Shown here: positions 2,224 through 57,170 of the stretch, in pieces | How positions within the stretch are numbered: the stretch's first letter is position 1 | Layout of the letters: each line of letters starts with the position of its first letter | DNA from: Elusimicrobiota bacterium | GTDB lineage: Bacteria > Elusimicrobiota > UBA8919 | NCBI GenBank assembly: GCA_040757695.1 | Contig: JBFLWK010000001.1 | Coordinates: forward strand, 89,758-153,757 | DNA length: 64,000 nt | Direction of reading: 5' to 3' | Translations under genes and position numbers: made by a program | Notes under the pieces: model-generated | Databases searched by the model: none | Seen by the model: only the letters and a program-made list of their open reading frames with translations | Told to the model about the DNA's origin: nothing

Positions 2224-2318
2224 ACTTTTTTTGACAGGATTAACTGGATTTTGACTTAATCCTGTAAATCCTGTCAGAAATATCTTTTGACTTTATCCTG
2301 TTAATCCTGTCAGGGTCT
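2224..2318. promoter_or_regulatory. Direct-repeat motif ATCCTGT(A/T)AATCCTGTCAG(A/G) ×2 plus a related TTGACAGGATTAA, in the 5' region of the rSAM gene at 1210-2223
   Basis: ttgacaggattaactggattttgacttaatcctgtaaatcctgtcagaaatatcttttgactttatcctgttaatcctgtcagggtc. The same motif is upstream of lysA at ~10258-10282. Confidence 0.5.
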
Positions 2319-8036: not shown

Positions 8037-8066
8037 CAAAAATGTAAGCATTTGCTTACATTTTTA
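8037..8066. repeat. Perfect palindrome AATGTAAGCATTTGCTTACATT (copy 1 of 3), immediately downstream of the dapF stop
   Basis: Identical 22-mer at ~8041-8062, ~8869-8890 and ~31695-31716; flanked here by A/T runs. Confidence 0.8.
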
Positions 8067-8865: not shown

Positions 8866-8890
8866 AAAAATGTAAGCATTTGCTTACATT
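8866..8890. repeat. Palindrome AATGTAAGCATTTGCTTACATT (copy 2) in the lysA–dapF junction, overlapping the lysA stop
   Basis: Exact match to copies 1 and 3. On the transcribed strand the hairpin is followed by TTTTTAGACG, so it could act as an attenuator/terminator or an operator. Confidence 0.8.
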
Positions 8891-30561: not shown

Positions 30562-30631
30562 ACACCCTCCAAATTAATGGCAAATTTTAAATTCTAAATT
30601 CTAAATTTAATATAAGTTTGGTTACACTTCC

Positions 30632-31597
30632 TCATTGCGGACAGGAGTGCATTAATTTGTGAATATAATTTTTAATTTCTTTAACTGCAGCAGGGTGGTT
30701 CATAACGAGAATATCGCTGCCGGCTTGAATATACCCGCAGGCAGTTATGATTTCCCAGTTAATACCTCTTGTTTCAAGATTTCCCCACTCGGGCTTTTCG
30801 GTTTCGTCTGCTTTACATTCTTTAGTTTTCCATGTTTCCTGACCAATGAATGTAATTACTGGTTGTGCCATCATTTTGTCATTCACAAGTGCAGCAAGCC
30901 GTGTTCGTTCAATTATAGAATAGCAGTACTCAAACCCGTAACCAAGTCCACCCGTTGAAGGATGAATAACAATTCTGTCTGCTGAAAATCCTATATCGGT
31001 AATCAAAATATTTAACTGTTTTTCAAGATTTATATCAAGCGGTGTCTCTGCAATTAAAGAATGTCCACCTGCCTGCGCAGCGGCAACGAATGTTTTATGA
31101 TTTTCTTTGGTTGCCATACCGAACAAGCAGTTTTCACCTTTTGCTGCCTGGCTTATATCCATAATAATCAACGAGTCTTTCTCATTATTCCCACAGCCGA
31201 CGATTATTAAAGGAACCGAAGTAACAGCCAAAACATCTTTTACTGTTTTTGCTACTTCAGATGCATCCGCGTTTTTACCGTCTGGGTTTGCACTTTCTAA
31301 TCGCAAACATATCAAATCAGCACCGAGTTGCTCGCATTTTTTAGCCCACTGTACTGGATTTTCCAAAACATCACCATACTCATTTTTAAGAATATCAGGC
31401 CAATCAGTTGGCTCAACATCCCAGACCTCCATAGCAACTGCAGGTAGATTAGGGATTTGTCCTTCAAAAAAAAGGAACGGCAGTGTATTGCTACCACCTA
31501 TTTTGATTTTTTTAGTCCGTGTTCCACCTTCCTCTTTTATAGCGCCGATTGTCAGTTCATAAATTTTTCCTTGCCATTTTTCAAGAACCTGCTCCAT
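30632..31597 (-). CDS. acsD: Corrinoid iron-sulfur protein small subunit (CODH/ACS delta subunit)
   Basis: TIM-barrel AcsD/CdhD-like: WQGKIYELTIGA...GGTRTKKIKIGGSNTLPFLFFEG...AVAMEVWDVEP...VPLIIVGCG; 321 aa. Confidence 0.7.
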   Translation of the reverse strand: MEQVLEKWQGKIYELTIGAIKEEGGTRTKKIKIGGSNTLPFLFFEGQIPNLPAVAMEVWDVEPTDWPDILKNEYGDVLENPVQWAKKCEQLGADLICLRLESANPDGKNADASEVAKTVKDVLAVTSVPLIIVGCGNNEKDSLIIMDISQAAKGENCLFGMATKENHKTFVAAAQAGGHSLIAETPLDINLEKQLNILITDIGFSADRIVIHPSTGGLGYGFEYCYSIIERTRLAALVNDKMMAQPVITFIGQETWKTKECKADETEKPEWGNLETRGINWEIITACGYIQAGSDILVMNHPAAVKEIKNYIHKLMHSCPQ

Positions 31598-31694
31598 TGT
31601 AACTCCTGATATAACAGTAAATTCTAAATCCTAAATTTCAATTAGACCATTTGGGCTAATTGAAAAATCAAAAATTACCGACGACCAATATTCA

Positions 31695-31716
31695 AATGTA
31701 AGCATTTGCTTACATT
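31695..31716. repeat. Palindrome AATGTAAGCATTTGCTTACATT (copy 3), ~100 nt upstream of the acsD start
   Basis: Exact 22-mer identical to copies flanking dapF. Confidence 0.8.
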
Positions 31717-31891
31717 CTCAAACAGAACTCTGTTAAGATTTAAACTCCTAAAATCAAGTTTTTAATCACTATTTATTCGTAAATCGAAAATTCACGACTA
31801 CAAATTTCAGCAAAATTTACTTGTTACCAGTACTAAACCTGCCTGCCGGCAAGACAGGGCGAGACAGGTAGAAAGTAGTTAAAACCATTTC

Positions 31892-33820
31892 CTACTTCCT
31901 CCTTCCCGCCATTCTTACTGACGGGAATAGTTCCATATTTGTATGTGGTAAAAACAGGGCTGCGGTATAATTATTCATAAATTCTGGGTCAGCACTTAAA
32001 TCGATATAGGTCATTTTTTGTGCAATCTCTTGGGCTTTTTTCATTGCATTTTGTGATAGCAGGCACATTTTAGCACCCGTTATTGAACCATTCCCGATGA
32101 ATATAAATCTTTCTTTTGGCAAATCCGGCAATAGCCCGAGTGTTATTGATTTCTCAATATCAAGCGCATTTCCAAGCCCACCTGCAATAATGACCCGTGC
32201 AAGTTGGTGGAAAGAAACCCCCATTTTTTTTAGCAACAGTTCACAGCCAGTAAAAATCGCACCTTTAGAATGAATCAGGTTTTTTATATCCGCCTGAGTT
32301 ATTGAAATGTTTGGGGTGATAAAAAACTCAAATTCATCTTCGGTTTTTCTTAAATACTTTGATGAGAGAACCGCAGTTTCTATAAAATTGCCGGATTTGT
32401 CTATCACGCCATTTGTAAAAAGCTCAGCGACAACAGAAATTATCCCTGCGCCGCAGATACCGACTGGTTTTTCGTTACCGATTGTTTCAATTTTGAATTC
32501 TGGTTCTGACTGGCTTGGAGCTTGGATTTTGAATTTCTCTATCGCACCTGCTTGTGCTCGGATACCGTGTTTTATCCCGCCACCTTCAAAACAAGGTCCT
32601 GCAGATGTAGAGCAACATACCAAAAAATCTTTGTTACCGAGCACAACTTCGCCATTGGTACCTAAATCAACAAAAAGTGTAAGTTGTGAAAAATTAGCGA
32701 GACCGCTTGCCAAGACACCGGCGGTAATATCGCCACCAATATATGATGCTATATTCGGTAGAGTTGCCAGTAACCCTCTTGGATTTATTTTTATACCTAC
32801 CTCAGCAGCACGGAGCACAGGAAAATTGTTTGCAACAGGTATATATGGTGACCGCCGGATATTTGACGGGTCAACTTTTAGAAGCAAGTGAATCATTGTA
32901 GTATTACCTGCGCAGACAATACAGTTTATATCGTTAAGTGGTATTTTATTTTCAATAATATGTGAAATAATAAGGTCGTTGATTACCTCAACAACTGTGT
33001 GGTGCAGTCGGTCAAGTCCTGAAAGTTGACCCGCTTGAATTATTCTTGTAATCACATCTTCACCAAACGAAATCTGGGGGTTATAGGTTGCTTTCGCAGA
33101 GATAATCTCTTGTGTGTTCAAATTAACAAGATACGAAACGATTGTAGTAGTTCCGATATCAACTGCAACACCAAAATTTTTTTTAGATGTATTGCCAGGT
33201 TCAACAAGCACGACTTCGGTTGTGCCATTCCGGTTACCGACTGTAACAGTGATTTGGAAATCGGATGGAGGCTGTGATCTTAAAAGTGCGGGCAATTTTT
33301 TTATATTAGCGAGTCCCATCTGCATTACAGGGTTAATGATATTAGATTTTTTTATCTCTCTAAATAACCGTTCAAGGTCAGCAGTTGAATCATCTAAAGA
33401 TGGTTTCGGTAGTTTCAGAAACAGTTTGGTTGAAAGCGGGTTGTATTCAAACACTTTTTCTTCAAAAACAGCAGGTTCAATTCTAGCGGTTTCTGCAGGT
33501 GTATAAATTTGGGTTAAAATTTCTGGTTTTTCAACACGGGTTTCTTCCGGGATAAAAACTTCAATATCACCATCATCTTCTTTACAAACTGTTCTACAGG
33601 CAAGGACATAGCCGTCTTTTTTTTCTTTATCAGACAGGATTGCAGAATCACTTATTACCTGCCCTTTTGTAATTTTTATCTTGCATCTGCCACAAATACC
33701 CTCGCCACCGCAGGAGTTATAAATCTGGATACCTGCCATCATTGCAGCAGTAAGCAAATCAGTTTCAGCGGGAACTGTTATTTCTTTATTATACGGCAAA
33801 AACTTTATTGTACAGGACAT
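31892..33820 (-). CDS. RACo-like reductive activator of corrinoid iron-sulfur protein: N-terminal plant-type [2Fe-2S] ferredoxin domain + ASKHA ATPase domain. Start set at the internal Met MSCTIKF; the track ORF extends to 33919.
   Basis: 2Fe-2S motif NSCGGEGICGRCKIKI...LACRT; linker; ASKHA/DUF4445 region VAVDIGTTTIV...GICGAGIISV. Confidence 0.65.
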   Translation of the reverse strand: MSCTIKFLPYNKEITVPAETDLLTAAMMAGIQIYNSCGGEGICGRCKIKITKGQVISDSAILSDKEKKDGYVLACRTVCKEDDGDIEVFIPEETRVEKPEILTQIYTPAETARIEPAVFEEKVFEYNPLSTKLFLKLPKPSLDDSTADLERLFREIKKSNIINPVMQMGLANIKKLPALLRSQPPSDFQITVTVGNRNGTTEVVLVEPGNTSKKNFGVAVDIGTTTIVSYLVNLNTQEIISAKATYNPQISFGEDVITRIIQAGQLSGLDRLHHTVVEVINDLIISHIIENKIPLNDINCIVCAGNTTMIHLLLKVDPSNIRRSPYIPVANNFPVLRAAEVGIKINPRGLLATLPNIASYIGGDITAGVLASGLANFSQLTLFVDLGTNGEVVLGNKDFLVCCSTSAGPCFEGGGIKHGIRAQAGAIEKFKIQAPSQSEPEFKIETIGNEKPVGICGAGIISVVAELFTNGVIDKSGNFIETAVLSSKYLRKTEDEFEFFITPNISITQADIKNLIHSKGAIFTGCELLLKKMGVSFHQLARVIIAGGLGNALDIEKSITLGLLPDLPKERFIFIGNGSITGAKMCLLSQNAMKKAQEIAQKMTYIDLSADPEFMNNYTAALFLPHTNMELFPSVRMAGRRK

Positions 33821-33866
33821 GGTATTCAATACCAAAACTTTTTGAATTCTTGTAATTCGGCAATTT

Positions 33867-36539
33867 TTAATCGCCGAACAGTTTATCAAATATGTTTTTT
33901 TTCTTACCCTCCACATCACCCTTTTTTTTGGCTTCTTCCTGTTGTTTTACCTGCCATTCTAACAGTCGTTTTTTTAACATCTCGTTTTCTTTAAGTACTG
34001 TTTGATATTTAATCTGCCAGTTTGTTTCAGTCAACATTATTTGTTTTTTAAGTGATGCTGTTTGGCTTTCTAACTCCTCAATTTTCTTATTTAATATCTT
34101 TTTCTGTTCCTCTATTCCTTGCCGGACAAGTTTTTCTATTTCATTAGTTTTTTCTTGTAGTATCTGTTGTTTTTCTTGCTGTAGATTAAATATCTTTTCA
34201 TTCAGTGAGATTCGCTCATCATTCATTTTCTTGTGTAATATTTCCGTTTCGGTTTCAACCTGCGAGAGCCGGTTTAGAAGTTCCTGTTCTTTCTGTTTCG
34301 TTTTTTCAATATGTTTCTCGTTTTCTGCCTGTTGATTTATAAGCATTTGCTCAAATTTTTGCTTCTCAACATTCGCGGATTCTCGCAGTTTTATTATTTG
34401 CATTTGCTCTATCTGTAATTGTTCTTTAACCGTTTTGAGAAGTTGTTCGCGCTTTTCTATTTCAATTTGCCAATTAGCATCTTTCTGGATTATTACTGCT
34501 TCTAATTCATTCTGTTGTGTTACATCTTTTTCTACAACACTCTTTAATCTGTTTATTTCTGCTCTTAATTCATTTATTGTCTGCTTTTTTTCTTCAAACT
34601 CTTTTCGCCAGTGTTCGTCGTTTTGCTTGAACTCCTGTATAAGTGCTAATTTTTCTTTTTCATTATTATCTATTCTGTTTTTGAAACTATTTATTATTCG
34701 TTCCTTTTCCTCTTTCTCTATTTGATACTGTGTTGCTTTTTCTCGTTCAACCAAAATTATCCCGCCCAATTTGTTTAAATCCTCGTCGGTATGTTTTATT
34801 TCCTGTTGTAATTGTTTTATCTTCTGTTCAAAACTCTGCACGATGGTATCTTTTGATTGTAATTGCTCATTGAGCAGTTTTATTGTCAGGTCTTTTTTTT
34901 GCAACTCAGTTTGAAGTTGGAAGGTCTGCTGTAACATTTCTGTTTCTAATTTTTTTATTTCGTCTTCTTTAAGGTTAAGTTTGGCAACCAACTGACTATT
35001 ATTTTCAAGCATTTGATTTTTCAGAGTATAGATTTCTACCTCTTTATTTTCTACTGTTGTTTCTAACTCTTTTAATTGGTTTTCTAATGTTTTGAGCATC
35101 TGGTCTCGTTTCTGAAGTTCAATTTGTAACTGTGTATCTTTCTGTAATATCTCGGTTCCTAATTCACCTTTTTGTTTGATATTTTCTTCTATTGTCTTTT
35201 TTAGTTTACTGATTTCACTCCGTAACTCATCTATTGTTTGTTTTTTCTCTTCAAACCCTTTTCGCCAGCGTTCGTCGTTTTCCTTAAATTCCTGTAAAAG
35301 TGTCTGATTCTCTTGCCCTAATTCTACTATCCGTTTGCTTAAATTGCTTATTTCTTTCTCTTTCGCTTCATGCTCTACACACCATTGCGAAACCTTTTGC
35401 ACTAGTTCTAAATCTAACTCTGCCCGTTGTTGCTCTAATTTGTTCGTTTTTAACTGCCAATCTCTATCATGTTCTTCTAATGTTTTATTAAATGTCTCAC
35501 GCACTTCTTTTATCTGTTTTTTTAATGTTTCTATTTCCTGTTCTTTCTGTTGAACCGTCCCTTGAAACTGGTCATTAATTACATCTTTTTCTCTATCATA
35601 TTTCTCACGCTCGGCTAAAATTATTGCACCTAATCTGTTCAAGTCGTTTTTCTCTCGGTTTAATTCTGTCTGTAATTGTTTTTCTTTTTCGTCAAAACCC
35701 TGTATAAGCGAGCTTTTCTCTTTTTCAAACTCTTTTTTTAACTGCGAACTCTCTATTTCAACCATTTGTAATTTGTCGTTCAGTAATTTTATTGTTTGCT
35801 CTTTTTTCTGCAACTCGGTTTGAAGTTGAAAATTCTGCTGTAACATTTCTGTTTCTAACACACTTTTTTCTTTTATTATAATACCGAGATTTTTATGTGT
35901 TTCGTTTAATTCTTTGCGTAGTTCATCAATTTCTTGCTGTCTGTTCTGCAGACCTTCCTGCCAGCGGTTCTCTTTTTGAACAAATTTATCTATCAGTGAG
36001 TCCTTCTCTTTATCAAAATTATCTTGTAACTCTTTTTCACGAGTTCTGATTTTCCCTAATGCTTCAACTCGGATTTCTTCCCGCTGTCTATCCAGTTTCC
36101 TAATTTCTTCTTCTTTTAGTTGAAATACATCCTGCCAGTGCTTGTTATTTTCAAAAATCTGGGTTTTGAGATTCTGGATTTCAATATCTTTATGTTTAAT
36201 TTTTGTCATTAACTCTGTGATTTCCTGTTTGTATGGTATTTCTATCTCTTTAACTTTTGTCTCTGCTTCTGCCAATTTTTGGGTTATTTGAATTTGTTGC
36301 GATTTAATTTTTTGTATTTCATCTGACCATTGTATCAGTTTGTCTTCTAATTCTTTAACTATATCTGACAGGATTCTTTTAATATTTGTTGCAACTGCAA
36401 AAGCACGAATATCAGTATCAGATTTCCCGGGTTTTGTTATTTTTTCTTCGGTATAACCAAAACCAGTTTTCATTTTGGTTTTTATTTCTAACAGCAAGGC
36501 GTCTATCTCGTCTTTATATTTTTCCATAATTATTTCCAA
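33867..36539 (-). CDS. 890-aa coiled-coil protein with ~100-aa internal repeats (Q/E/K-rich), inserted between acsC and the RACo gene
   Basis: Heptad-rich sequence throughout. Repeated blocks: ETEMLQQNFQLQTELQKKEQTIKLLNDKLQ / ETEMLQQTFQLQTELQKKDLTIKLLNEQLQ, and RWQEGLQNRQQEIDELRKEL / RWRKGFEEKKQTIDELRSEI / HWRKEFEEKKQTINELRAEI. No enzymatic motif. Confidence 0.6.
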   Translation of the reverse strand: MEIIMEKYKDEIDALLLEIKTKMKTGFGYTEEKITKPGKSDTDIRAFAVATNIKRILSDIVKELEDKLIQWSDEIQKIKSQQIQITQKLAEAETKVKEIEIPYKQEITELMTKIKHKDIEIQNLKTQIFENNKHWQDVFQLKEEEIRKLDRQREEIRVEALGKIRTREKELQDNFDKEKDSLIDKFVQKENRWQEGLQNRQQEIDELRKELNETHKNLGIIIKEKSVLETEMLQQNFQLQTELQKKEQTIKLLNDKLQMVEIESSQLKKEFEKEKSSLIQGFDEKEKQLQTELNREKNDLNRLGAIILAEREKYDREKDVINDQFQGTVQQKEQEIETLKKQIKEVRETFNKTLEEHDRDWQLKTNKLEQQRAELDLELVQKVSQWCVEHEAKEKEISNLSKRIVELGQENQTLLQEFKENDERWRKGFEEKKQTIDELRSEISKLKKTIEENIKQKGELGTEILQKDTQLQIELQKRDQMLKTLENQLKELETTVENKEVEIYTLKNQMLENNSQLVAKLNLKEDEIKKLETEMLQQTFQLQTELQKKDLTIKLLNEQLQSKDTIVQSFEQKIKQLQQEIKHTDEDLNKLGGIILVEREKATQYQIEKEEKERIINSFKNRIDNNEKEKLALIQEFKQNDEHWRKEFEEKKQTINELRAEINRLKSVVEKDVTQQNELEAVIIQKDANWQIEIEKREQLLKTVKEQLQIEQMQIIKLRESANVEKQKFEQMLINQQAENEKHIEKTKQKEQELLNRLSQVETETEILHKKMNDERISLNEKIFNLQQEKQQILQEKTNEIEKLVRQGIEEQKKILNKKIEELESQTASLKKQIMLTETNWQIKYQTVLKENEMLKKRLLEWQVKQQEEAKKKGDVEGKKKNIFDKLFGD

Positions 36540-37843
36540 ACAGTTTTCAGATATTTTGGAATACCTGACGCTTCCTTAGGCCCAACCAGAACCTGCCAGC
36601 CGGTAGTATCTTCCAATTTCCCGCTCATCACGGAGACATATCCGGGAATGATTATTTTTTTATGTGAGACCTTACTTGCAATTTCCGTTTTTTTCATCCA
36701 GGTATCAACTATTTCAGCATTAAACTTATCCGCAGCCCAAGCAGTTAAAACAGACATACCATCGGAATCACAGACCAGAAGCCACGCAGGCATTTTTGAG
36801 TTTTCTACTTCAGGCACGACGGTAAAAAATGTTAACGAAAAGTTTGTTGTAACTAAAAAAGGTGATTGAGCATCAGGTGTGCCAATGGTATAAAGTTTGG
36901 GCTCCATCATTATAGGTTTCTGCGGGTCAGTATAGATATTAAGCCGAAGTGTAATCAACGGCAGGATATCTTCAACTTTATCGGTTTCTACAACAAGTAT
37001 GTTCGCATATTTTGTAATATATGTTGACGCTTCAAATATATCTTTGGCAAATGCAAGGACAGGATAGCCAAGCGGTCTAAAATTCTTTTTTAGTGCCAGC
37101 CGTCTGATTTGTGTAAAATCCTGCACACATTTTGATAGTTCCCGAGAACCGCAATCAAGCACAATATCTTTAATACCTGATGAAGATGCCTTTTGAGAAA
37201 GTGAAACAAGTTTTTCAATATTTTCTCCATATACGCAAATCGGTACTTTATACTTTTTTGCCAATCCGAACATTTGTTCGGATTGCTTTTCAGTTGCACA
37301 ATAAATCAGTGGTTTTTTTTGAGAAATATTTTTCAGCACCTCATCTATTGCCGTCGGATTTTCACTAATAAGAATTAAAGGCAATTTTATTTTATCAGAA
37401 AGTTCTTTTGATATATCTGCGAATTTTGATATATCATTTGAAACATTTTTAACCGCAACAAGGTCTATGCTAACCAGCATTCCAACTCTTTCAAACTGAA
37501 GTTTTTTTATTTTTTCTATTTTAGTTGAAAGATTGGGCTCGTTATCGGCGACAGATACAGCAATCGCTGTTGGATGATAGAATGTTTTTTCATGACGGAA
37601 AAGCACTGTCTCGCCACCGATTTCTACTTTTTTTTCACCTTCGCCAATTGTGATTGTTGCCATTGGTGGAAGCGATGCGGACTCTAAAAGTTGTTTTGCC
37701 TGTTCAGTTACATCCGGACATTTATCCAGCGTAGTTTTTTTTCCAGCGAGTGCCATTGCAAATGCCAGACAGGTAGGGAATCCACATTTTTTACAATTTG
37801 TTTTTGGCAGATGTTTGTAAATATCAAGCCCTGAAAGCGCCAT
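36530..37843 (-). CDS. acsC: Corrinoid iron-sulfur protein large subunit (CODH/ACS gamma subunit)
   Basis: N-terminal [4Fe-4S] motif CKKCGFPTCLAFAMALAGKKTTLDKC; TIM-barrel and C-terminal B12-binding Rossmann region; 437 aa. Confidence 0.75.
   Translation of the reverse strand: MALSGLDIYKHLPKTNCKKCGFPTCLAFAMALAGKKTTLDKCPDVTEQAKQLLESASLPPMATITIGEGEKKVEIGGETVLFRHEKTFYHPTAIAVSVADNEPNLSTKIEKIKKLQFERVGMLVSIDLVAVKNVSNDISKFADISKELSDKIKLPLILISENPTAIDEVLKNISQKKPLIYCATEKQSEQMFGLAKKYKVPICVYGENIEKLVSLSQKASSSGIKDIVLDCGSRELSKCVQDFTQIRRLALKKNFRPLGYPVLAFAKDIFEASTYITKYANILVVETDKVEDILPLITLRLNIYTDPQKPIMMEPKLYTIGTPDAQSPFLVTTNFSLTFFTVVPEVENSKMPAWLLVCDSDGMSVLTAWAADKFNAEIVDTWMKKTEIASKVSHKKIIIPGYVSVMSGKLEDTTGWQVLVGPKEASGIPKYLKTVWK
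37263..37284. promoter_or_regulatory. Single 22-nt palindrome AATCCGAACATTTGTTCGGATT (Cheo-box-like core) inside acsC coding sequence
   Basis: Read from the sequence; it encodes ...SEQMFGL in frame. Confidence 0.4.
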
Positions 37844-37871
37844 AAAATCCCTCCAAAAAATTATATGAGTT

Positions 37872-40424
37872 TTATGCTTCTTTCAATGCGGATTTTTCTT
37901 CAGCAGTACGATCTCGCATAGACAACGCGCCTGATAAACATTTTTGAACACAGATACTGCAACCGATACATTTTTCCGGGTCGGTTACTGGATGTTTATC
38001 TTTATCAAATGAGATTGCCTGATATGAACATCTTGTGCAGTTCCCACAGGAAAGACATATATCTGTATTACAGGTTGATATTTTTTTTACCGGTGATAGA
38101 GCCATAAAATCAGTAATCGGCTTTGGCAGTGCGATTCCTATTAGTTCTTTCATTGATTTTATTCCGCGTTCTTTCATCAGGTAACTTGTCCCACTAACAA
38201 GTTCGTCAAAGATTGAGTACCCGTTTTTCATTACGATTGTGCAGAACTGTACCGTTTTACAGCCAAGTGCAAGAAAGTTACAAGCTGCCTTGTAATTCAT
38301 AGGTCCACCATTGCCTGAAACCGCAACACCTAAATGTGAAACATTTGCCAGAGTTAAATAACTTATTGGTAACACCCCTTCACCGCTCATCCCGACAATA
38401 ATTCCTTCTTCCCAATTTGTTTTATTACCCGGTCTAATACACAAAGTTGGGAAAGTATTGGCAAGTGTAATACCAGCTTTTTTATTTGGATATTTAGCAA
38501 AAACTTTTTTTATTGCGTTGATGATTACTGCGATTGAGGTAACCGCTGCAGTTAATTTGAAAAGTTTCGGAATCTCAGGATTACTTATCTCCATAATCCA
38601 GTCAATAATTTTGGCAGTTAATGCTGCATTCTGCGAGACGATATCGCCTTCAGTTCCATCGCCACCCTGCGGGCAGGAAAGCGAGTATTCAATTCCCATC
38701 ACACCGGCATTTTCAAGTTTTTTGGTGTTTGATTGCCAGCCTTTTTTATCGTTTTCATCATTACATGTAACAGGCCCGCCTGTAGAAGCCATTGTAAGCC
38801 GGTCAGGAAATTCTTTAACTAATTTCTGGACTTCTCGGCAAACCCTGTCAAGCGGATGACCTGAAACATTATCGCAATTTCCATATGTTAAATTATTAAA
38901 CAGATGCATATATTCACCAGGGATATGGATTGGGACATTATCAAATGCGGTTTTCATTATCCCACCAGACCAGCCGGCTTCATAACCTTTTTTCATCTGC
39001 TCGTAACCGTCAGATGGTGGTGCAGCAGAAAGCAAAAACGGTGATGATATTTTTCTGTCAAAAAAGTCAGTTTCAAGTGAAACAGGCAGATGAACATACC
39101 CTTTAAGCACCGTTGTGTTTTTTACTTTATTCTCAATTTTTGGTTTTTTAATATTATTTACGAATGCATCAATTTCTAATGCTGCGTTTTTACCAGCAGC
39201 AACTGCTTCTACAACAGTTGTTGGTCCTTGAATACAATCACCTGAATAAAAGACAGTGGGATTATCCGTGTTATTCAATTTTGCTTTTGCACCAATTGCT
39301 ACTATAACTGTTGATATATCCGTTCGGGTTTGTTCGGTATCAGGAATTTCTTTTATGTCTTTGAGGTTAAACTTTACACCTTTAGGTAGTGATACTTTGA
39401 TTGTTTTTAAGCCAGCGATAGCATTACCTTTTTTAAGAATTGAACCAACTTTTGTTCTGCCGGTCAGTTCTATATTGTTTTCCAAAAGTTCGTTCATTTC
39501 TTTTGGTGTAAGTGGCATTTCACCGACGGTTTCTAATGCAATCATTTCAACATTAGTAGCACCATTTAGTTTCGCAATCATCGCACAATCCGCTGCGGTT
39601 GCACCACCACCAATCACTGCAACTTTACTATTCGCTTCGCTCTTAAATTTATATTTCTTTGGGTTTCTTAAATAATCCAAACCAACAATAGCGAGGTCTT
39701 CATTTTCTATACCTAATTTGATTGGTTCTGTAAGCCCGACTGCTACGAGAACTGCATCATAACCACCTGTTTTTTCAAGCAATGTATCCGGATTTTCTAT
39801 CTCTGAATTCAATTTTAGATTTATATCACCCAGCGATGTTAGAAATTTTATATCTTCTTGAAGCATCTCTTTTGTAAGCCGATATTCCGGGATAAGATTA
39901 CACATTCCGCCAGCAACTTTTTCTTTTTCGTAGATATCAACTTTGTAACCGAGTGTGCCGAGTAGTGACGCAGCACCTAACCCAGCAGGACCTGAACCTA
40001 TTATTGCCACTTTTTTGCCATTTGATTTCGGCTTGACAAATTCTGCTATTTCGCCTAACTCTCTTGCTTTTTTTACAATTGTCGCCTGCACTGCTGGGAT
40101 ATTAACTGCAGAATCAAATTTTTTATGCACACAGGCAGCCATACAGAACCGGTCAGGACAGACCAACCCGCACACACCACCGAGTGGATTATTTTTCATT
40201 ATTTGTGCCGCAGACCGTTTTATATCTGAACTGCTAAAAATACTGGCAGCCATAATGAAATCAGCTGCAGAGCAATCGCAGGGACATTTATCCTTGCAAG
40301 GTTTCTCCTCGCAGAATTCACATTTAGCAAATTCATTTTTTAACTGTGCATCCGTCAAAAAAAATTTTTCATCAAGTTTAGCAACCATATTTTCTCCAAT
40401 CATAGCGCACCTCTGAAATGTCAT
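37872..40424 (-). CDS. Dihydropyrimidine-dehydrogenase-like fused oxidoreductase: GltD-like Fe-S/FAD/NAD(P)H module + DHODH-like FMN TIM barrel + 2×[4Fe-4S] ferredoxin domain. The start is probably an internal Met, since the first codons overlap an IR element.
   Basis: Cys-rich N-terminus CEFCEEKPCKDKCPCDC...GVCGLVCP...FCMAAC; dinucleotide folds VAIIGSGPAGLGAA and VAVIGGGATAADCA; C-terminal ferredoxin motifs CLSCGNCTRC and CIGCSICVQKC. Confidence 0.7.
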   Translation of the reverse strand: MTFQRCAMIGENMVAKLDEKFFLTDAQLKNEFAKCEFCEEKPCKDKCPCDCSAADFIMAASIFSSSDIKRSAAQIMKNNPLGGVCGLVCPDRFCMAACVHKKFDSAVNIPAVQATIVKKARELGEIAEFVKPKSNGKKVAIIGSGPAGLGAASLLGTLGYKVDIYEKEKVAGGMCNLIPEYRLTKEMLQEDIKFLTSLGDINLKLNSEIENPDTLLEKTGGYDAVLVAVGLTEPIKLGIENEDLAIVGLDYLRNPKKYKFKSEANSKVAVIGGGATAADCAMIAKLNGATNVEMIALETVGEMPLTPKEMNELLENNIELTGRTKVGSILKKGNAIAGLKTIKVSLPKGVKFNLKDIKEIPDTEQTRTDISTVIVAIGAKAKLNNTDNPTVFYSGDCIQGPTTVVEAVAAGKNAALEIDAFVNNIKKPKIENKVKNTTVLKGYVHLPVSLETDFFDRKISSPFLLSAAPPSDGYEQMKKGYEAGWSGGIMKTAFDNVPIHIPGEYMHLFNNLTYGNCDNVSGHPLDRVCREVQKLVKEFPDRLTMASTGGPVTCNDENDKKGWQSNTKKLENAGVMGIEYSLSCPQGGDGTEGDIVSQNAALTAKIIDWIMEISNPEIPKLFKLTAAVTSIAVIINAIKKVFAKYPNKKAGITLANTFPTLCIRPGNKTNWEEGIIVGMSGEGVLPISYLTLANVSHLGVAVSGNGGPMNYKAACNFLALGCKTVQFCTIVMKNGYSIFDELVSGTSYLMKERGIKSMKELIGIALPKPITDFMALSPVKKISTCNTDICLSCGNCTRCSYQAISFDKDKHPVTDPEKCIGCSICVQKCLSGALSMRDRTAEEKSALKEA

Positions 40425-40495
40425 TGCGAGGGCACTGAAAGTGACCGTGGCAATCCCATATTAAGATTGCTTCGGGCTTTGCCCTCGCATCATTC
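40419..40495. repeat. Inverted-repeat element TGTCATTGCGAGGGCACTGAAAGTGACCGTGGCAATC ... GATTGCTTCGGGCTTTGCCCTCGCATCATTC
   Basis: The arms share GTCATTGCGAGGGCA and GCAATC in opposite orientation. Related in design, and partly in sequence (GTCATT...GAGC/GAGG...AATC), to the element at 7232-7313. Confidence 0.6.
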
Positions 40496-40526
40496 TATTA
40501 TTCTTATCAATAAGTTGCCTTTTTTT

Positions 40527-40928
40527 TCATTTGAGTAATAACAGTATACCACAACCAATCGCTAGTAACCCGCAGACGCGTGCTAACCAGATTGAGATTC
40601 TTACTCCACACATTGCCACTGTCTCTGGTGTTGCAAATGGGAACAATATTGTCAACACACCAAGAAATATGACGGTAATATTAAATGCTGTTTGTATACC
40701 AACGGTTCCAAAAATTATAATTGCAATGATTGAGCCGAGAACAAGTAGCAAGAAAAGAATAGCATATTTTGTGACATATTCTGCAAATCTTCTGAAATTA
40801 CTTTCGTATTCTGGCAGAATATAAAACGTTCGTTCCTGAGGTTTTAAACCAATTCTATTCGGCACTTTTACTATAATTTCTTTTAAGTTATCACTTTTTC
40901 TATTTGTCCAAATACATCGTTTCTTCAT
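40527..40928 (-). CDS. Small membrane protein (3-4 TM helices)
   Basis: Hydrophobic profile only. Confidence 0.3.
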   Translation of the reverse strand: MKKRCIWTNRKSDNLKEIIVKVPNRIGLKPQERTFYILPEYESNFRRFAEYVTKYAILFLLLVLGSIIAIIIFGTVGIQTAFNITVIFLGVLTILFPFATPETVAMCGVRISIWLARVCGLLAIGCGILLLLK

Positions 40929-40959
40929 CTTCTTAAATCCTTTCTTTTGTGTCCCATAT

Positions 40960-42195
40960 TCACAAATACTGATTTCTTAGCGCAATGGGAATATTATATC
41001 TGCGGAGTTTGATATCAGCAAATTTTTCTTCTGATACATCTTTTTCTGAAAGAATTAAGTTATTCATAAACCCGCTGCCTGTGACATCGCCGACATTGAT
41101 ATAGCCAACTAATTTATCATCTTTAAGCACAAATTTTTTATATTTATTTGCCGTGTTAACAACAACCTCTTTGAAACCTTCTTCTTTGGGACGAGAAATA
41201 CCAAAAGAAACCGCAGGGATACCAAAAAATTCACCGATATTCATCGCATATCCACCTTCATAGCTAATTTTTTCACCTGCCATATTTAGCCCGGCAATTT
41301 TTCCCTGTACAACAGCATTAGGCCACATAGCATTGATACGGTTATCTTCATAGAGTGAATCCCATCCTTGTGCAACATCGCCTGCCGCAAAAATATCCGG
41401 GATGTTTGTATTGAGGTATTTATCTACAATTACTCCGCGGTCAACTTTTACACCTGAACCTTTAAGAAAATCAATGTTGGGCTTCACTCCTTTACCGACA
41501 ACTACAAGTTCGCAAATTATTTTCGTACCATCATTAAGTATAACACCTGATACAGATTCTTTGCCAAAAATCTCTTTTACATCAGTATTAAATTTTATTT
41601 CAATTCCTAATGATTCTGCTTTTTTTTGAACTATTGCTGAAGCCTCGTTATCAAGCATCTGTGAAAGCAGCCGATTTGAAGCAACAACGATTGTTACTTT
41701 TAGTCCTCTTTTTATTAAGGAATAAGCTGCTTTGCAAGAAACAAGCCCACCACCGATAATTATTGCTCTTTTTGTCTTTGCAATCCGTTTAACTATCGCA
41801 TTAGCATCTTCAATAGTTCTCAAACCAAACACACCGCTAAGTTTTATTCCAGGTATATCAGGAAAGGTTGGTGTAGCGCCGGTTGCTATTAGCAGTTTAT
41901 CGTAAGAAATTTTTTTGCCATCATCAATTTGAATCTTTTTTTCTTTTACAAAAAGTGTTTTGACCTTTTTTCCAAGTAAATGCTTGATTTTGAATTCATC
42001 ATAGAAATTCCGGGGTCGCATTAACATTTCATTTTCTGTTATTTCGCCTGCAATATAACTGCTTGTAAAAATGCGACAATAAGGTCCGAATCGCTCATCG
42101 GAGATAATCGTAATCTCGCTTTTTTTAGCCGTTGACCTTATTACCTCGGCAGCGGTTACGCCAGCCGCACTGTTTCCTATAATAACATATTTCAT
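40960..42195 (-). CDS. FAD-dependent pyridine-nucleotide-disulfide oxidoreductase family protein (NADH oxidase / rubredoxin- or ferredoxin-reductase-like). The start is probably the Met of MKYVIIGNSAAG.
   Basis: Two Rossmann motifs (VIIGNSAAGVTAA; AIIIGGGLVSCKAA) and a C-terminal AAGDVA FAD motif. Confidence 0.7.
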   Translation of the reverse strand: MKYVIIGNSAAGVTAAEVIRSTAKKSEITIISDERFGPYCRIFTSSYIAGEITENEMLMRPRNFYDEFKIKHLLGKKVKTLFVKEKKIQIDDGKKISYDKLLIATGATPTFPDIPGIKLSGVFGLRTIEDANAIVKRIAKTKRAIIIGGGLVSCKAAYSLIKRGLKVTIVVASNRLLSQMLDNEASAIVQKKAESLGIEIKFNTDVKEIFGKESVSGVILNDGTKIICELVVVGKGVKPNIDFLKGSGVKVDRGVIVDKYLNTNIPDIFAAGDVAQGWDSLYEDNRINAMWPNAVVQGKIAGLNMAGEKISYEGGYAMNIGEFFGIPAVSFGISRPKEEGFKEVVVNTANKYKKFVLKDDKLVGYINVGDVTGSGFMNNLILSEKDVSEEKFADIKLRRYNIPIALRNQYL

Positions 42196-42306
42196 TGTTC
42201 GCTTTCGCTCCATCACGAATATAACCAAATAATAACCGAATTAAACCAAATATTCGGTTATATTCGGTGTTATTATTTGGTTTTCATTCGGGTTTTGTTT
42301 CGCGTT

Positions 42307-42612: not shown

Positions 42613-43015
42613 TGTTCCTCCTTTCGGTTTCTAAAACTTTTTTTATGTCTAAAACAAGGTTCGCTATATCTATCGGCTTGGAGTAAAAACCTTTTACATT
42701 CGGCTGCGACTTTAAGAACTCGTAGGTTGTTCCGTCGGTAAATTTACCGGTAATAATCATAACCGGTATTTCTTTTGTAGTTTCGTTTTGCTGAAGATTC
42801 TTTAGCACCTGAAATCCACCCTGCTTGGGCAACATCAAATCAAGAATTATTATATCGGGCTTGAGATTTTCAACTTTCAGTAGCGCTTCTGTTCCATCGT
42901 AAGCAACAAAAACAGTAAGGTTTTCTCTTGAAAGAATATGCTTGAACAGTTCTACAATATTTTCATCATCATCAACAACAAGTACTTTTTTGCTTACCAA
43001 ATTTTTTAACTGCAT
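42605..43015 (-). CDS. Single-domain response regulator (CheY-like receiver)
   Basis: KVLVVDDDENIVELF...DIIILDLMLPKQGG...KPIDI; phospho-acceptor Asp in LDLMLP. Confidence 0.8.
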   Translation of the reverse strand: MQLKNLVSKKVLVVDDDENIVELFKHILSRENLTVFVAYDGTEALLKVENLKPDIIILDLMLPKQGGFQVLKNLQQNETTKEIPVMIITGKFTDGTTYEFLKSQPNVKGFYSKPIDIANLVLDIKKVLETERRNNV

Positions 43016-56180: not shown

Positions 56181-56192
56181 TTTCTCACTTGC

Positions 56193-57170
56193 TCATTTAG
56201 CTAAATGAGCAAGTGACCTTTTTAACTCTTCTATTGAAACGGTAGCAGTGCCTAATTTACCAACAACAATCCCAGCAGCACAATTTGCAATTTTTGCTGA
56301 CTCAATTAACGAAGCACCACACGATAATGCAAGCGTTAAAACCGCAACGACTGTATCACCAGCACCGGTTACATCAAACACTTCTCTTGCCGATGTCGGG
56401 ATATGTGTGCTATTCCCTTTTTCAAACAATGTCATTCCTTGTTCACCTTGTGTAATTAAAACCGAACGGCATTGTAGTTTTTTCAAGATTTTTTTGCCAA
56501 GGTTATCTAAATCTTTTTCTGCTTGTATTTTAGGAACATTCATACCAGTCATCGCTTCGGAAAGGTTCGGTGTAAGACAATCTACATGTTTGTATCTTGT
56601 AAAATGTTCTACCTTGGGATCAACAGTAACAATTTTTTTGTGGCTTTTTGCTAACTTCACCGTTTCTTGTATTATCGTTTTAGTAATAATCCCCTTGCCA
56701 TAATCAGATATTAAAATAGCATTGCAATCCTGTAGTTTTTTATTTATATATTCTAACATTTTTTTTGTCATAGCTGGTGAGAATTCACGAACTGTCTCTT
56801 TATCAAATCTTACAACCTGCTGATGTCCCGCGATAATTCTTGTTTTGATTGAGGTAGTTATTATATCGTCAGTAAAAACGCCTTCTGTATTAATCTTTTT
56901 TTTACGAAGTTCTTTAAGCAAAATCTCCGCAGTATAATCATTACCAACAATTCCACAAATTGAAACCTTTCCACCAAGTGATACAATGTTATTGGCAACA
57001 TTTCCAGCACCGCCTAAACAGTATGTCTCTGTCTTAACATCAACTACTGGAACAGGTGCTTCCGGCGAAATCCTTCTGGTCTCACCACGAATAAATCTAT
57101 CAAGTATCAAATCGCCAATAATAAGCACTCTGGTATCGGAAATCTTTTTCAGTATATTATTAAAACTCAT
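56193..57170 (-). CDS. hldA: D-glycero-beta-D-manno-heptose-7-phosphate kinase (RfaE domain I, PfkB family), stand-alone
   Basis: VLIIGDLILDRFIRGETRRISPEAPVPVVDV...GGAGNVA...DVTGAGDTVVA, ribokinase-like motifs with the RfaE-I N-terminus. Confidence 0.8.
   Translation of the reverse strand: MSFNNILKKISDTRVLIIGDLILDRFIRGETRRISPEAPVPVVDVKTETYCLGGAGNVANNIVSLGGKVSICGIVGNDYTAEILLKELRKKKINTEGVFTDDIITTSIKTRIIAGHQQVVRFDKETVREFSPAMTKKMLEYINKKLQDCNAILISDYGKGIITKTIIQETVKLAKSHKKIVTVDPKVEHFTRYKHVDCLTPNLSEAMTGMNVPKIQAEKDLDNLGKKILKKLQCRSVLITQGEQGMTLFEKGNSTHIPTSAREVFDVTGAGDTVVAVLTLALSCGASLIESAKIANCAAGIVVGKLGTATVSIEELKRSLAHLAK

What the first reader, a model, noticed from the sequence alone, without database searches (positions are those of the whole stretch)
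30632..37843. Corrinoid Fe-S protein operon interrupted by an 890-aa coiled-coil protein and a RACo-like activator
acsC (gamma) and acsD (delta) are normally adjacent. Here they are separated by a giant coiled-coil protein with ~100-aa internal repeats and by a [2Fe-2S]-ASKHA RACo-type ATP-dependent reductive activator. Both intervening genes overlap their neighbours (10 and ~50 nt), which implies co-translation. No CODH/ACS alpha or beta subunit, nor methyltransferase acsE, is in the window. A filament- or scaffold-like protein embedded in a corrinoid-protein operon is unexpected. It could organise the CFeSP and its activator spatially, or be an unrelated insertion.
Basis: partly seen in the sequence, partly recalled or inferred. 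Interest (0 to 1): 0.65.

Follow-up and report, generated by a model that had tools for sequence, protein, structure and literature searches.

The report
Orphan coiled-coil gene inserted in corrinoid-protein operon
An ordinary corrinoid iron-sulfur protein gene cluster (acsC, its ATP-dependent activator, acsD) in an Elusimicrobiota genome carries one extra gene, an 886-residue coiled-coil protein seen only in a few Elusimicrobiota; most close relatives lack it, so it is probably an accessory insertion rather than part of the enzyme machinery.

Summary
The gene order is real. On the minus strand lie acsC (36530-37843), an 886-aa all-helical coiled-coil gene (33867-36527), a RACo/AcsV activator (31892-33820) and acsD (30632-31597).

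- **The activator is not an interruption.** acsC-RACo-(cooC)-acsD is the usual order in about 35 loci from many phyla and in published acetogen operons.
- **The 10-nt and ~50-nt overlaps are artefacts of longest-ORF starts.** The conserved start codons leave a 2-nt and a 46-nt spacer.
- **The repeats are not ~100-aa tandem units.** They are 40-77-aa modules that recur every 219-303 aa.

The coiled-coil gene is a genuine gene under purifying selection (dN/dS 0.20 against its one full-length orthologue). It is also an orphan: a search of 1.84 billion proteins found two N-terminal fragments. Five other close Elusimicrobiota lineages (79-84% AcsC identity) have acsC directly followed by RACo. The two carriers are not sister lineages, yet their coiled-coil genes show much less synonymous divergence than the flanking genes, which points to lateral exchange.

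In two relatives a single-domain response regulator precedes the gene. Its conserved C-terminal tail resembles the MinD membrane-targeting helix.

Best reading: a lineage-specific, probably membrane-peripheral coiled-coil protein riding in the operon. Modest interest.

The parts
36530..37843 (-). acsC: large (gamma) subunit of the corrinoid iron-sulfur protein, 437 aa
   Evidence: Pfam FeS (PF04060) + CdhD (PF03599, 360 bits). NCBIfam PRK04165 gamma subunit scores 578.7 bits against a cut-off of 306. It is 79-84% identical to AcsC of six other Elusimicrobiota loci.
33867..36527 (-). Orphan coiled-coil gene, 886 aa from the conserved ATG. The TTG at 36539 would add 4 aa and create the reported overlap.
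   Evidence: No Pfam, NCBIfam, PADLOC or PDB family membership. Predicted about 93% helix with no globular domain, and heptad periodicity about 9.6 sd (computed) above shuffles. The orthologue in L002 is 1059 aa and 72% identical, differing by block indels. dN/dS is 0.20. Only N-terminal fragments were found among 1.84 billion representative proteins.
36342..36527 (-). Conserved N-terminal head (residues 1-62): helix, GFGY loop, then the start of the long helix. This is the only region shared by all family members.
   Evidence: 90% identical to L002 and conserved in P0001, P0002 and P0003. AlphaFold2 on a 4-sequence alignment gives H2-20, a loop, then H37-147 (pLDDT 87). Nothing significant in the PDB by sequence or by fold.
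33870..33902 (-). C-terminal tail KKNIFDKLFGD: candidate MinD-type amphipathic membrane-targeting helix
   Evidence: The tail is conserved in L002 (KKNIFKQLFGE) although the 15 residues before it diverge. The E. coli MinD membrane-targeting sequence is KGFLKRLFGG (PMC5471200). Hydrophobic moment is 0.47 against 0.45 for MinD, with the same mean hydrophobicity, and the motif occurs once in the protein. This is an inference, not a test.
34416..35302 (-). Internal repeat pair D1 (230 nt at 34416-34645 and 35073-35302, 71% identical). With pair D2 (34857-34972 and 35766-35881, 78% identical) it forms the repeated protein modules.
   Evidence: DNA repeats. The matching protein modules, e.g. LLQEFKENDERWRKGFEEKKQTIDELRSEI / LIQEFKQNDEHWRKEFEEKKQTINELRAEI and ETEMLQQ(N/T)FQLQTELQKK, come.
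31892..33820 (-). RACo/AcsV-type ATP-dependent reductive activator of the corrinoid protein, 642 aa from ATG 33820
   Evidence: Pfam Fer2 + RACo_linker + Raco_middle + RACo_C_ter. The best NCBIfam match is AcsV at 621 bits (cut-off 800). The start is supported by homologue alignments and by an independent gene call.
31598..31891 (-). 294-nt non-coding spacer between RACo and acsD. It holds a GC-rich hairpin just after the RACo stop and a palindrome (31694-31717) that also occurs 3' of two other genes. An AGGAG Shine-Dalgarno sequence precedes acsD.
   Evidence: Sequence. Folding energy is -77.1 kcal/mol against -58.8 +/- 4.5 for shuffles. The palindrome recurs at 8040-8063 and 8868-8891. There is no cooC remnant and no Rfam match. 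The spacer is 21-94 nt in L002, L003, L088 and L090.
30632..31597 (-). acsD: small (delta) subunit of the corrinoid iron-sulfur protein, 321 aa
   Evidence: Pfam CdhD. NCBIfam NF003376 delta subunit scores 437 bits against a cut-off of 280.
37872..40424 (-). Context: an 850-aa fusion of a GltD-like NAD(P)H flavoprotein with a PreA/dihydroorotate-dehydrogenase-like Fe-S protein, 28 nt upstream of acsC, where relatives carry acsB
   Evidence: Pfam Fer4_20 + Pyr_redox_2 + Fer4. NCBIfam PRK12771 (248 bits) and PreA (194 bits), both below their cut-offs. Absent from all 80 related loci.

Best explanation
acsC, RACo/AcsV and acsD are an ordinary corrinoid iron-sulfur protein (CFeSP) module of the Wood-Ljungdahl pathway, in its usual gene order. 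The 886-aa gene is a real, selected gene that encodes a long segmented coiled-coil rod. It belongs to a tiny family known so far only from Elusimicrobiota and is accessory to the operon.

**How it got there.** It sits in the acsC-RACo spacer, which in relatives holds only REP-like (short repeated palindromic) elements. It appears to have been exchanged laterally between lineages rather than inherited with the operon.

**How it is expressed.** Its start codon lies 2 nt after the acsC stop, so it is most likely co-transcribed with acsC and translationally coupled to it.

**What it does (inferred).** The rod is held at the inner face of the cytoplasmic membrane by a MinD-like C-terminal amphipathic helix. 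Its conserved N-terminal head binds a partner. In relatives the partner is probably the single-domain response regulator encoded just upstream, which would make the protein a regulated membrane-associated scaffold or cytoskeletal element.

**Shown and inferred.** Shown: it is a selected coding gene, it is patchily distributed, and its synonymous divergence is low. Inferred: membrane binding, the response-regulator partnership, and independence from CFeSP chemistry.
For: **A real, constrained gene**
- The reading frame is intact in two genomes, with 72% identity over aligned positions and whole-block indels.
- dN/dS is 0.20 overall and 0.14 in the N-terminal 150 residues.

**An orphan family**
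- phmmer against 1.84 billion representative proteins gave two hits, both N-terminal fragments of 131-149 aa.
- A profile search of 5.8 billion clusters gave three hits, one annotated as Elusimicrobiota.
- No Pfam, NCBIfam, PADLOC or PDB membership.

**Accessory, not core**
- L003, L085, L086/87, L088/89 and L090 (79-84% AcsC identity) have acsC-RACo-acsD without it.
- About 35 loci from other phyla also lack it.
- The window and L002 are not sister lineages for AcsC, RACo or AcsD. Identities are star-like at 72-87% among lineages other than L003/L086 (whose RACo is ~60% identical to the rest). The two carriers share only 1-3 residues exclusively, no more than other pairs.

**Lateral exchange**
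- At conserved residues the same codon is used in 73% of coiled-coil gene positions against 49% in the flanking genes (z = 8.4).
- The values expected at saturation are 0.49 and 0.41, so codon bias does not explain the gap. For arginine the figures are 0.63 against 0.15.
- Codon preferences also differ from the flanks (ATA against ATT, TTA against CTT).

**An insertion-prone region**
- The acs cluster of this clade carries other unrelated inserts. Two kinds of type II restriction-modification system lie between acsB and acsC in L002/L085 and in L088. A 476-544-aa protein with no Pfam match occupies that position in L003/L086/L089. REP-like palindromes occupy the acsC-RACo spacer.

**Response-regulator link**
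- A 125-aa receiver protein directly precedes the gene in L002 (200-nt gap) and in L083 (0-nt gap). The two receivers are 70% identical.

**Membrane tail**
- See the C-terminal tail entry under parts.

**Coupling**
- The junction reads TAA-TT-ATG.
Against: - Only two full-length copies exist, and both lie between acsC and RACo. A functional tie to the corrinoid protein therefore cannot be excluded.
- The other family members sit on short, broken or chimeric contigs (L082, L083, L084), so their wider context is unknown.
- The MinD-like tail is a 10-residue resemblance with 4 identities. Its hydrophobic moment is only at the 80th percentile of 10-mers within this protein, and the L083 copy as assembled lacks the tail.
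- The window has no response regulator next to the gene. The nearest one (42632-43000) is only 38% identical to the L002 receiver.
- Lateral transfer twice into the same spacer needs an explanation, such as recombination through the conserved flanking genes. That was not demonstrated. The last 60 codons of acsC show only mildly raised codon identity (0.65).
- Low synonymous divergence could in principle reflect selection on the mRNA.
Confidence: 0.6

Rival explanations
1. Dedicated scaffold. The coiled-coil protein is a functional partner of the corrinoid iron-sulfur protein. It holds CFeSP and its activator RACo together, or tethers them at the membrane next to the Rnf complex that supplies low-potential electrons.
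For: Both full-length copies sit exactly between acsC and RACo. Spacers are 2 nt and 46 nt in the window and 9 nt before RACo in L002. The gene is under purifying selection. The candidate membrane-targeting tail fits a tether. Wood-Ljungdahl Elusimicrobia are reported to depend on Rnf (10.1101/765248).
Against: The gene is absent from five close Elusimicrobiota lineages and from every other phylum examined, all with otherwise intact acsC-RACo-acsD. AcsC, RACo and AcsD show no sequence change specific to the carriers. Synonymous divergence is decoupled from the flanking genes. No recognisable interaction domain was found. In L002 and L083 the tighter neighbour is a response regulator.
Confidence: 0.15
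2. A split FrzS/AglZ-like polarity or motility adaptor. The receiver protein and the coiled-coil rod together act like the Myxococcus receiver-plus-coiled-coil proteins, localising pili or another polar machine. The operon position would be incidental.
For: A receiver gene is followed immediately by the coiled-coil gene in L083 (stop codon abuts the ATG) and lies nearby in L002. FrzS is a receiver domain fused to a coiled coil (PMC1974792, PMC9811614).
Against: No sequence similarity to FrzS or AglZ was detected. No pilus or motility genes lie nearby. The window copy has no adjacent receiver. The L002 receiver has a DD pair and an Asp at the positions expected for a canonical acidic pocket and phospho-acceptor (sequence read; positions assigned by eye, no alignment to a reference receiver was made), whereas the FrzS receiver lacks the phosphorylation site (abstract of PMC1974792).
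Confidence: 0.15
3. A selfish or decaying passenger: repeat-rich DNA that is tolerated in the operon and has no cellular role.
For: Patchy distribution, signs of lateral exchange, block indels between the two copies, and one copy (L084) broken after about 80 residues, where a 501-aa ORF on the opposite strand begins.
Against: dN/dS is 0.14-0.39 along the whole length. Reading frames of 886 and 1059 codons are intact in AT-rich DNA, and both termini are conserved. No transposase, integrase or terminal repeats flank it.
Confidence: 0.07

Closest known systems
acs operon of acetogens: acsC - orf7 (RACo/AcsV) - acsF (cooC) - acsD - acsE (Moorella, Carboxydothermus and relatives)
   Same: The same three proteins in the same order, acsC then RACo then acsD. 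RACo has the same domain set: [2Fe-2S] ferredoxin, linker, middle domain and ASKHA-fold ATPase.
   Different: No cooC/acsF lies between RACo and acsD, which is true of the whole Elusimicrobiota clade. In this window acsA, acsB, acsE and ack are also missing on both sides. One extra coiled-coil gene is present.
Bacterial coiled-coil-rich / intermediate-filament-like proteins (crescentin, FilP, Scy, Helicobacter Ccrp)
   Same: A long, segmented, repeat-bearing heptad rod with short non-helical ends and no enzymatic domain.
   Different: No detectable sequence relationship. Filament formation is untested. The operon context is different.
MinD C-terminal membrane-targeting sequence (KGFLKRLFGG in E. 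coli)
   Same: A short amphipathic motif at the extreme C terminus, KK-x-hydrophobic-hydrophobic-x-x-LFG, with nearly the same hydrophobic moment and mean hydrophobicity.
   Different: It is attached to a coiled-coil rod, not to a ParA/MinD ATPase. Only 4 of 10 residues are identical, and membrane binding is untested.
FrzS / AglZ of Myxococcus xanthus (receiver domain fused to a long coiled coil)
   Same: A receiver paired with a coiled coil, here as adjacent genes in L002 and L083.
   Different: The two parts are separate polypeptides. The receiver appears, by eye, to carry the usual phospho-acceptor Asp. No sequence similarity was found, and the window copy has no receiver next to it.
SMC / Rad50-type coiled-coil ATPases
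   Same: The only profile hit of the protein is to the coiled-coil arm of prokaryotic SMC (TIGR02168 positions 685-984, 27.5 bits).
   Different: The score is far below the cut-off of 567. There are no ATPase head domains and no hinge.

Membership tests
Corrinoid iron-sulfur protein (AcsC/AcsD, CdhE/CdhD) | Large subunit with an N-terminal [4Fe-4S] motif plus a CdhD-type TIM-barrel/B12 region, scoring above the curated family cut-off | tested here: met
   PF04060 + PF03599. NCBIfam PRK04165 scores 578.7 bits against a cut-off of 306.
Corrinoid iron-sulfur protein (AcsC/AcsD, CdhE/CdhD) | Small subunit of the delta type, scoring above the curated cut-off | tested here: met
   PF03599. NF003376 scores 437.3 bits against a cut-off of 280. 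The narrower WLP_AcsD model scores 315.8, below its cut-off of 430.
Corrinoid iron-sulfur protein (AcsC/AcsD, CdhE/CdhD) | Works with acetyl-CoA synthase, CODH and the methyltransferase AcsE encoded in the same genome | not testable with these tools
   None of these genes is in the 64-kb window. All close relatives carry them next to acsC/acsD. The rest of the source genome could not be read.
RACo / AcsV reductive activator | Domain order [2Fe-2S] ferredoxin - linker - middle domain - ASKHA ATPase | tested here: met
   PF00111, PF17650, PF17651 and PF14574, all above their gathering scores.
RACo / AcsV reductive activator | Score above the NCBIfam AcsV cut-off | tested here: not met
   NF040756 scores 621 bits against a cut-off of 800. 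It is still by far the best match, covering 5-633 of 642 residues.
SMC family | N- and C-terminal ABC-type ATPase head halves and a hinge, scoring above the cut-off | tested here: not met
   27.5 bits against 567, with only the coiled-coil arm aligned. No P-loop domain in Pfam, and the model is all helix.
DivIVA / GpsB | N-terminal lipid-binding DivIVA domain (PF05103) | tested here: not met
   No Pfam hit at E <= 0.01. A profile of the N-terminal head against PDB sequences returned only generic coiled coils, and Foldseek found nothing with E < 1.
Intermediate-filament-like coiled-coil-rich proteins | A long segmented heptad-repeat rod | tested here: met
   a/d hydrophobic enrichment of 0.43 against 0.26 +/- 0.018 in shuffles, with frequent register shifts. 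Helices H38-516, H521-620, H672-747 and H758-866.
Intermediate-filament-like coiled-coil-rich proteins | Cofactor-independent self-assembly into filaments | not testable with these tools
   Needs purified protein and electron microscopy.
MinD-type membrane-targeting sequence | A C-terminal amphipathic helix that binds membrane | tested here: inconclusive
   The motif and its hydrophobic moment are similar to MinD, and the tail is conserved between the two full-length copies. The motif is short, binding is untested, and the tail is absent from the broken L083 copy.
FrzS/AglZ-type receiver-coiled-coil proteins | Receiver domain fused N-terminally to the coiled coil | tested here: not met
   The protein has no receiver domain. 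A separate receiver gene lies upstream in L002 and L083 only.
Anti-phage defence systems (PADLOC) | Match to a known defence protein model | tested here: not met
   No hits for the window protein or the L002 protein.

The most novel reading that the evidence does not exclude
The coiled-coil protein is a membrane tether for one-carbon metabolism. Its MinD-like tail would anchor it to the membrane and its N-terminal head would hold the corrinoid iron-sulfur protein and/or its ATP-dependent activator close to the Rnf complex. A response regulator would switch this on and off in some lineages. That would be the first dedicated spatial organiser of a Wood-Ljungdahl enzyme, and it would spread laterally as an add-on module.
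Probability: 0.1. Interest if true: 0.65.

Novelty: new member of a known kind. Interest (0 to 1): 0.3.

Why it matters
The corrinoid-protein genes and their activator are textbook, so that part adds nothing new.

The extra gene is a small curiosity. It defines an orphan coiled-coil family restricted to Elusimicrobiota. It shows that the acs cluster of this clade tolerates insertions (restriction-modification systems, proteins with no family match, this gene). It also seems to move between lineages into the same spacer.

If it bound the corrinoid protein, it would bear on how Wood-Ljungdahl enzymes are arranged in cells, but the evidence leans against that.

A separate point deserves a look in the full genome. 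The CFeSP-activator module in this window has been stripped of CODH/ACS, cooC, acsE and acetate kinase, and it sits among envelope-biogenesis genes. That raises the question of whether this organism still runs the pathway or uses the corrinoid protein for something else.

Tried and rejected
- **Word-indexed homologue search with the full protein.** 8000 candidates, none scored. Coiled-coil words swamp the index, and even the query itself was not returned.
- **Two scans of JGI metagenome contigs** (N-terminal profile, then the full alignment). 600 pattern matches each, none confirmed by tblastn.
- **Structure prediction with the two-sequence alignment.** The single-sequence model is low confidence and only informs on secondary structure.
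- **A DivIVA/GpsB-like N-terminal head**, suggested by the GFGY motif. Rejected: no Pfam, PDB-profile or Foldseek support.
- **The 294-nt RACo-acsD spacer as a decayed cooC or a riboswitch.** Rejected: no tblastn trace of cooC and no Rfam match anywhere in the window.
- **Promoter and terminator consensus scans of the locus.** Counts were no better than in shuffled sequence.
- **Codon bias as the cause of the low synonymous divergence.** Rejected by the saturation expectations and the per-amino-acid comparison.
- **Contexts of L082 and L084 as evidence that the gene occurs elsewhere.** L082 is a chimeric contig (GC 0.63 at the ends, 0.37-0.40 in the middle). L084 has only 77 nt upstream. Both show non-coding DNA, not acsC, immediately upstream, but they cannot show what lies further away.
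- **Literature search** for a coiled-coil gene in corrinoid-protein operons: no paper found.
Full report
**What is there**

The region holds five co-directional minus-strand genes:
- an 850-aa fusion of a GltD-like and a PreA-like Fe-S flavoprotein (37872-40424);
- acsC (36530-37843);
- a long ORF with no domain match (33867-36539 as the longest ORF);
- a RACo-type activator (31892-33919 as the longest ORF);
- after 294 non-coding bases, acsD (30632-31597).

Pfam and NCBIfam identify the three known genes securely. AcsC has FeS + CdhD and scores 578.7 bits on the gamma-subunit model against a cut-off of 306. AcsD scores 437 bits on the delta-subunit model against 280. The activator carries Fer2, RACo_linker, Raco_middle and RACo_C_ter, and its best NCBIfam match is AcsV (621 bits, below that model's strict cut-off of 800).

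**The overlaps are artefacts**

The reported 10-nt and ~50-nt overlaps come from taking the first possible start codon of each ORF.
- The coiled-coil protein starts at the ATG at 36527. Its N terminus MEKYKDEI is the first ATG of the L002 orthologue and is conserved in every family member. That ATG follows the acsC stop as TAA-TT-ATG.
- RACo starts at the ATG at 33820 (MSCTIKF). Homologues align from residues 1-5, and L085 begins MSCKIKF.
- An independent gene call on an identical Logan contig gives 886 aa and 642 aa.

The true spacers are 2 nt and 46 nt. Translational coupling of acsC and the coiled-coil gene remains plausible. Coupling of the coiled-coil gene to RACo is not indicated.

**The activator is where it belongs**

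Eighty loci were fetched with AcsC as the query. In about 35 of them, from Omnitrophota, Planctomycetota (including anammox bacteria), Clostridia, Kiritimatiellia and others, the order is acsC-RACo-X-acsD. X is a 240-280-aa P-loop protein that begins AGKGG(S/T/V)GKTT; I take it to be CooC/AcsF on that motif, its size and its position alone (no profile scan was run on it). This matches the published acsC-orf7-acsF-acsD order of acetogen operons (PMC8359318, Fig. 5 legend). Other loci have acsD-acsC. The premise that acsC and acsD are normally adjacent is therefore only one of the common layouts, and RACo is not an interruption.

**The source organism**

The closest AcsC proteins (79-84% identity) all come from Elusimicrobia/Elusimicrobiota MAGs. 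The window's own AcsC is recorded as Elusimicrobiota. Groundwater Elusimicrobia lineages VII-IX are reported to carry the Wood-Ljungdahl pathway together with Rnf (10.1101/765248).

**The coiled-coil protein**

- **Composition.** 886 aa: 16% E, 15% K, 11% Q, 11% L, 9% I, two prolines, net charge -18.
- **Secondary structure.** AlphaFold2 on the single sequence predicts about 93% helix in a few very long helices and no globular domain (pLDDT 58.7, so only the secondary structure is used).
- **Heptad periodicity.** Hydrophobic a/d periodicity lies about 9.6 sd (computed) above shuffles and shows many register shifts.
- **Repeats.** Internal repeats exist but are not tandem 100-aa units. One module of about 77 aa occurs three times about 219-232 aa apart, and a second module of about 40 aa occurs twice 303 aa apart.
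- **N-terminal head.** The first 62 residues form a helix, a GFGY-containing loop, and the start of the long helix (pLDDT 87 with a four-sequence alignment). This is the only part shared by all relatives.
- **C-terminal tail.** The last 11 residues are KKNIFDKLFGD in the window and KKNIFKQLFGE in L002. They are conserved although the preceding 15 residues are not.
- **Resemblance to MinD.** The tail resembles the E. coli MinD membrane-targeting sequence KGFLKRLFGG (PMC5471200) in position, pattern, hydrophobic moment (0.47 against 0.45) and mean hydrophobicity. This is a lead, not a test.

**Family size**

- HMMER against 1.84 billion representative proteins found two hits, both fragments of 131-149 aa that cover only residues 1-142.
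- A profile of the head against 5.8 billion clusters found three, one named Elusimicrobiota.
- Pfam gives only sub-threshold coiled-coil noise. NCBIfam gives 27.5 bits to the SMC arm. PADLOC and the PDB give nothing.
- The fragments lie on short contigs that break or shift frame inside the repeats.

**Is it a real gene?**

Yes. The L002 orthologue (1059 aa) is 72% identical at aligned positions and differs by whole-block insertions. dN/dS is 0.20 overall, ranging from 0.14 in the N-terminal 150 residues to 0.39 at the C-terminal end. The values for acsC, RACo and acsD are 0.067, 0.049 and 0.027.

| Locus | AcsC identity to window | Arrangement | Coiled-coil gene |
|---|---|---|---|
| Window (= L001) | 100% | acsC - coiled-coil - RACo - acsD | yes |
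| L002 | 82% | acsC - receiver - coiled-coil - RACo - acsD | yes |
| L085 | 84% | restriction-modification system - acsC - 181 nt - RACo | no |
| L003, L086/87 | 81-82% | acsC - RACo - acsD - ack - fhs | no |
| L088/89 | 80% | acsC - RACo - acsD - ack - acsE | no |
| L090 | 79% | cooC - cooS - ferredoxin - oxidoreductase - acsB - acsC - RACo - acsD - ack ... acsE | no |

 Every locus from the other phyla also lacks the gene.

The two carriers are not sister lineages. AcsC, RACo and AcsD identities are star-like: the window's RACo is 76% identical to those of L002, L088 and L090 alike. Carriers share no more exclusive residues than any other pair. Nothing suggests that the corrinoid protein or its activator has adapted to the coiled-coil protein.

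**Signs of lateral exchange**

At residues conserved between the window and L002, the same codon is used at 73% of positions in the coiled-coil gene against 49% in acsC, RACo and acsD (z = 8.4). The values expected at saturation from codon usage are 0.49 and 0.41, so the flanks are nearly saturated and the coiled-coil gene is not. The effect holds for each amino acid: Arg 0.63 against 0.15, Thr 0.67 against 0.30, Ile 0.84 against 0.52. It is uniform along the gene, with sharp edges.

The two coiled-coil genes therefore share a more recent ancestor than the genes around them. Together with the patchy distribution, this favours transfer between lineages over vertical inheritance with four or more losses. 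How the gene reached the same spacer twice was not resolved. Recombination through the conserved flanking genes is the obvious candidate.

The neighbourhood is clearly permissive:
- two kinds of type II restriction-modification system and a protein with no Pfam match occupy the acsB-acsC gap in different relatives;
- REP-like palindromes occupy the acsC-RACo spacer in L085, L088 and L089;
- one of those palindromes recurs at 56186-56215 in the window.

**The response-regulator link**

In L002 a 125-aa single-domain receiver lies between acsC and the coiled-coil gene. By eye, its sequence has a DD pair and an Asp where the acidic pocket and phospho-acceptor normally lie; no alignment to a reference receiver was made. 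In L083 a 70% identical receiver ends exactly where the coiled-coil gene begins. The window has no receiver at this position. The nearest one (42632-43000) is only 38% identical to the L002 receiver. Receiver-plus-coiled-coil is a known architecture in fused form (FrzS: PMC1974792, PMC9811614), but no sequence similarity supports membership.

**Interpretation**

The best-supported reading is that an accessory, laterally exchanged, orphan coiled-coil gene has landed in an otherwise canonical corrinoid-protein module and is expressed with it. I infer that the protein is a membrane-peripheral rod whose head binds a partner, most likely the receiver protein where one is present. The inference rests on the MinD-like tail, the conserved head and the receiver adjacency.

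The scaffold-for-CFeSP idea survives only as a minority possibility, since both complete copies do lie between acsC and RACo. A pure junk reading is unlikely given the purifying selection.

**A separate observation**

The window's CFeSP module is isolated.
- Relatives have cooC-cooS-ferredoxin-oxidoreductase-acsB upstream and ack, acsE and fhs downstream.
- The window instead has the 850-aa flavoprotein fusion and a 133-aa orphan upstream, and an OmpA-family gene downstream.
- The rest of the 64 kb is envelope and lipopolysaccharide biogenesis, a Bat/MoxR cluster, arginine synthesis and radical-SAM genes.

Whether they are elsewhere in the genome could not be checked.

**Verdict**

The extra gene is a new member of a known kind (bacterial coiled-coil-rich proteins) inside an already known operon. 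Interest is modest.

Noticed in passing
window 30632-42228 compared with L002, L088 and L090: The acsC-RACo-acsD module has lost every Wood-Ljungdahl neighbour that flanks it in close relatives (cooC, cooS, ferredoxin and acsB upstream; ack, acsE and fhs downstream). It lies among envelope and LPS genes. An 850-aa GltD-like/PreA-like Fe-S flavoprotein fusion (37872-40424) and a 133-aa orphan (40527-40928) sit where acsB would be.
   Followed up: partly
window 31694-31717, 8040-8063, 8868-8891: An identical 23-24-nt palindrome (AATGTAAGCAAATGCTTACATTT) lies in the RACo-acsD spacer and just 3' of two other minus-strand genes. It is a likely terminator-like or REP-like element and hints that acsD is transcribed separately here.
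   Followed up: partly
window 56186-56215; L085 3397-3424; L088 3941-3971; L089 3056-3086: A REP-like palindrome (TACTTTCTCATTTAGCTAAATGAGAAAGTG) fills the acsC-RACo spacer of relatives that lack the coiled-coil gene. It also occurs once in the window, far from the locus.
   Followed up: no
L002 8185-9971; L085 1-2056; L088 421-2578: Type II restriction-modification systems of two different kinds (HpyAIV/HinfI-like with an N4/N6 methylase; NgoFVII-like) are inserted between acsB and acsC in different Elusimicrobiota. The acs cluster of this clade is an insertion hot spot.
   Followed up: partly
window 31618-31638 and 30588-30608: A 21-nt direct repeat (95% identical) flanks acsD on both sides. 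Its significance is unknown, and with E = 0.001 within the window it may be chance or a shared 5'-UTR motif.
   Followed up: no
L084 78-416 and 391-1896: A homologue of the coiled-coil gene diverges after about 80 residues at the point where a 501-aa ORF begins on the opposite strand. That ORF has no Pfam match and may be an uncharacterised mobile element.
   Followed up: partly
L003 11454-13079; L086 4073-5695: RACo in one Elusimicrobiota sub-clade is only 540 aa, lacks the linker domain, and is about 60% identical to the others, while AcsC stays above 80% identical.
   Followed up: no
L083 (same sample as the window's Logan twin, SRR29635779): A second, more divergent receiver plus coiled-coil pair co-occurs in the same sample. 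Its coiled-coil gene is split over three reading frames and is much shorter, which could be repeat collapse in assembly or a genuine pseudogene.
   Followed up: partly
window 2310-4529: A 739-aa fusion of a B12-binding radical-SAM domain with a family-2 glycosyltransferase, flanked by two further radical-SAM genes and another glycosyltransferase.
   Followed up: no
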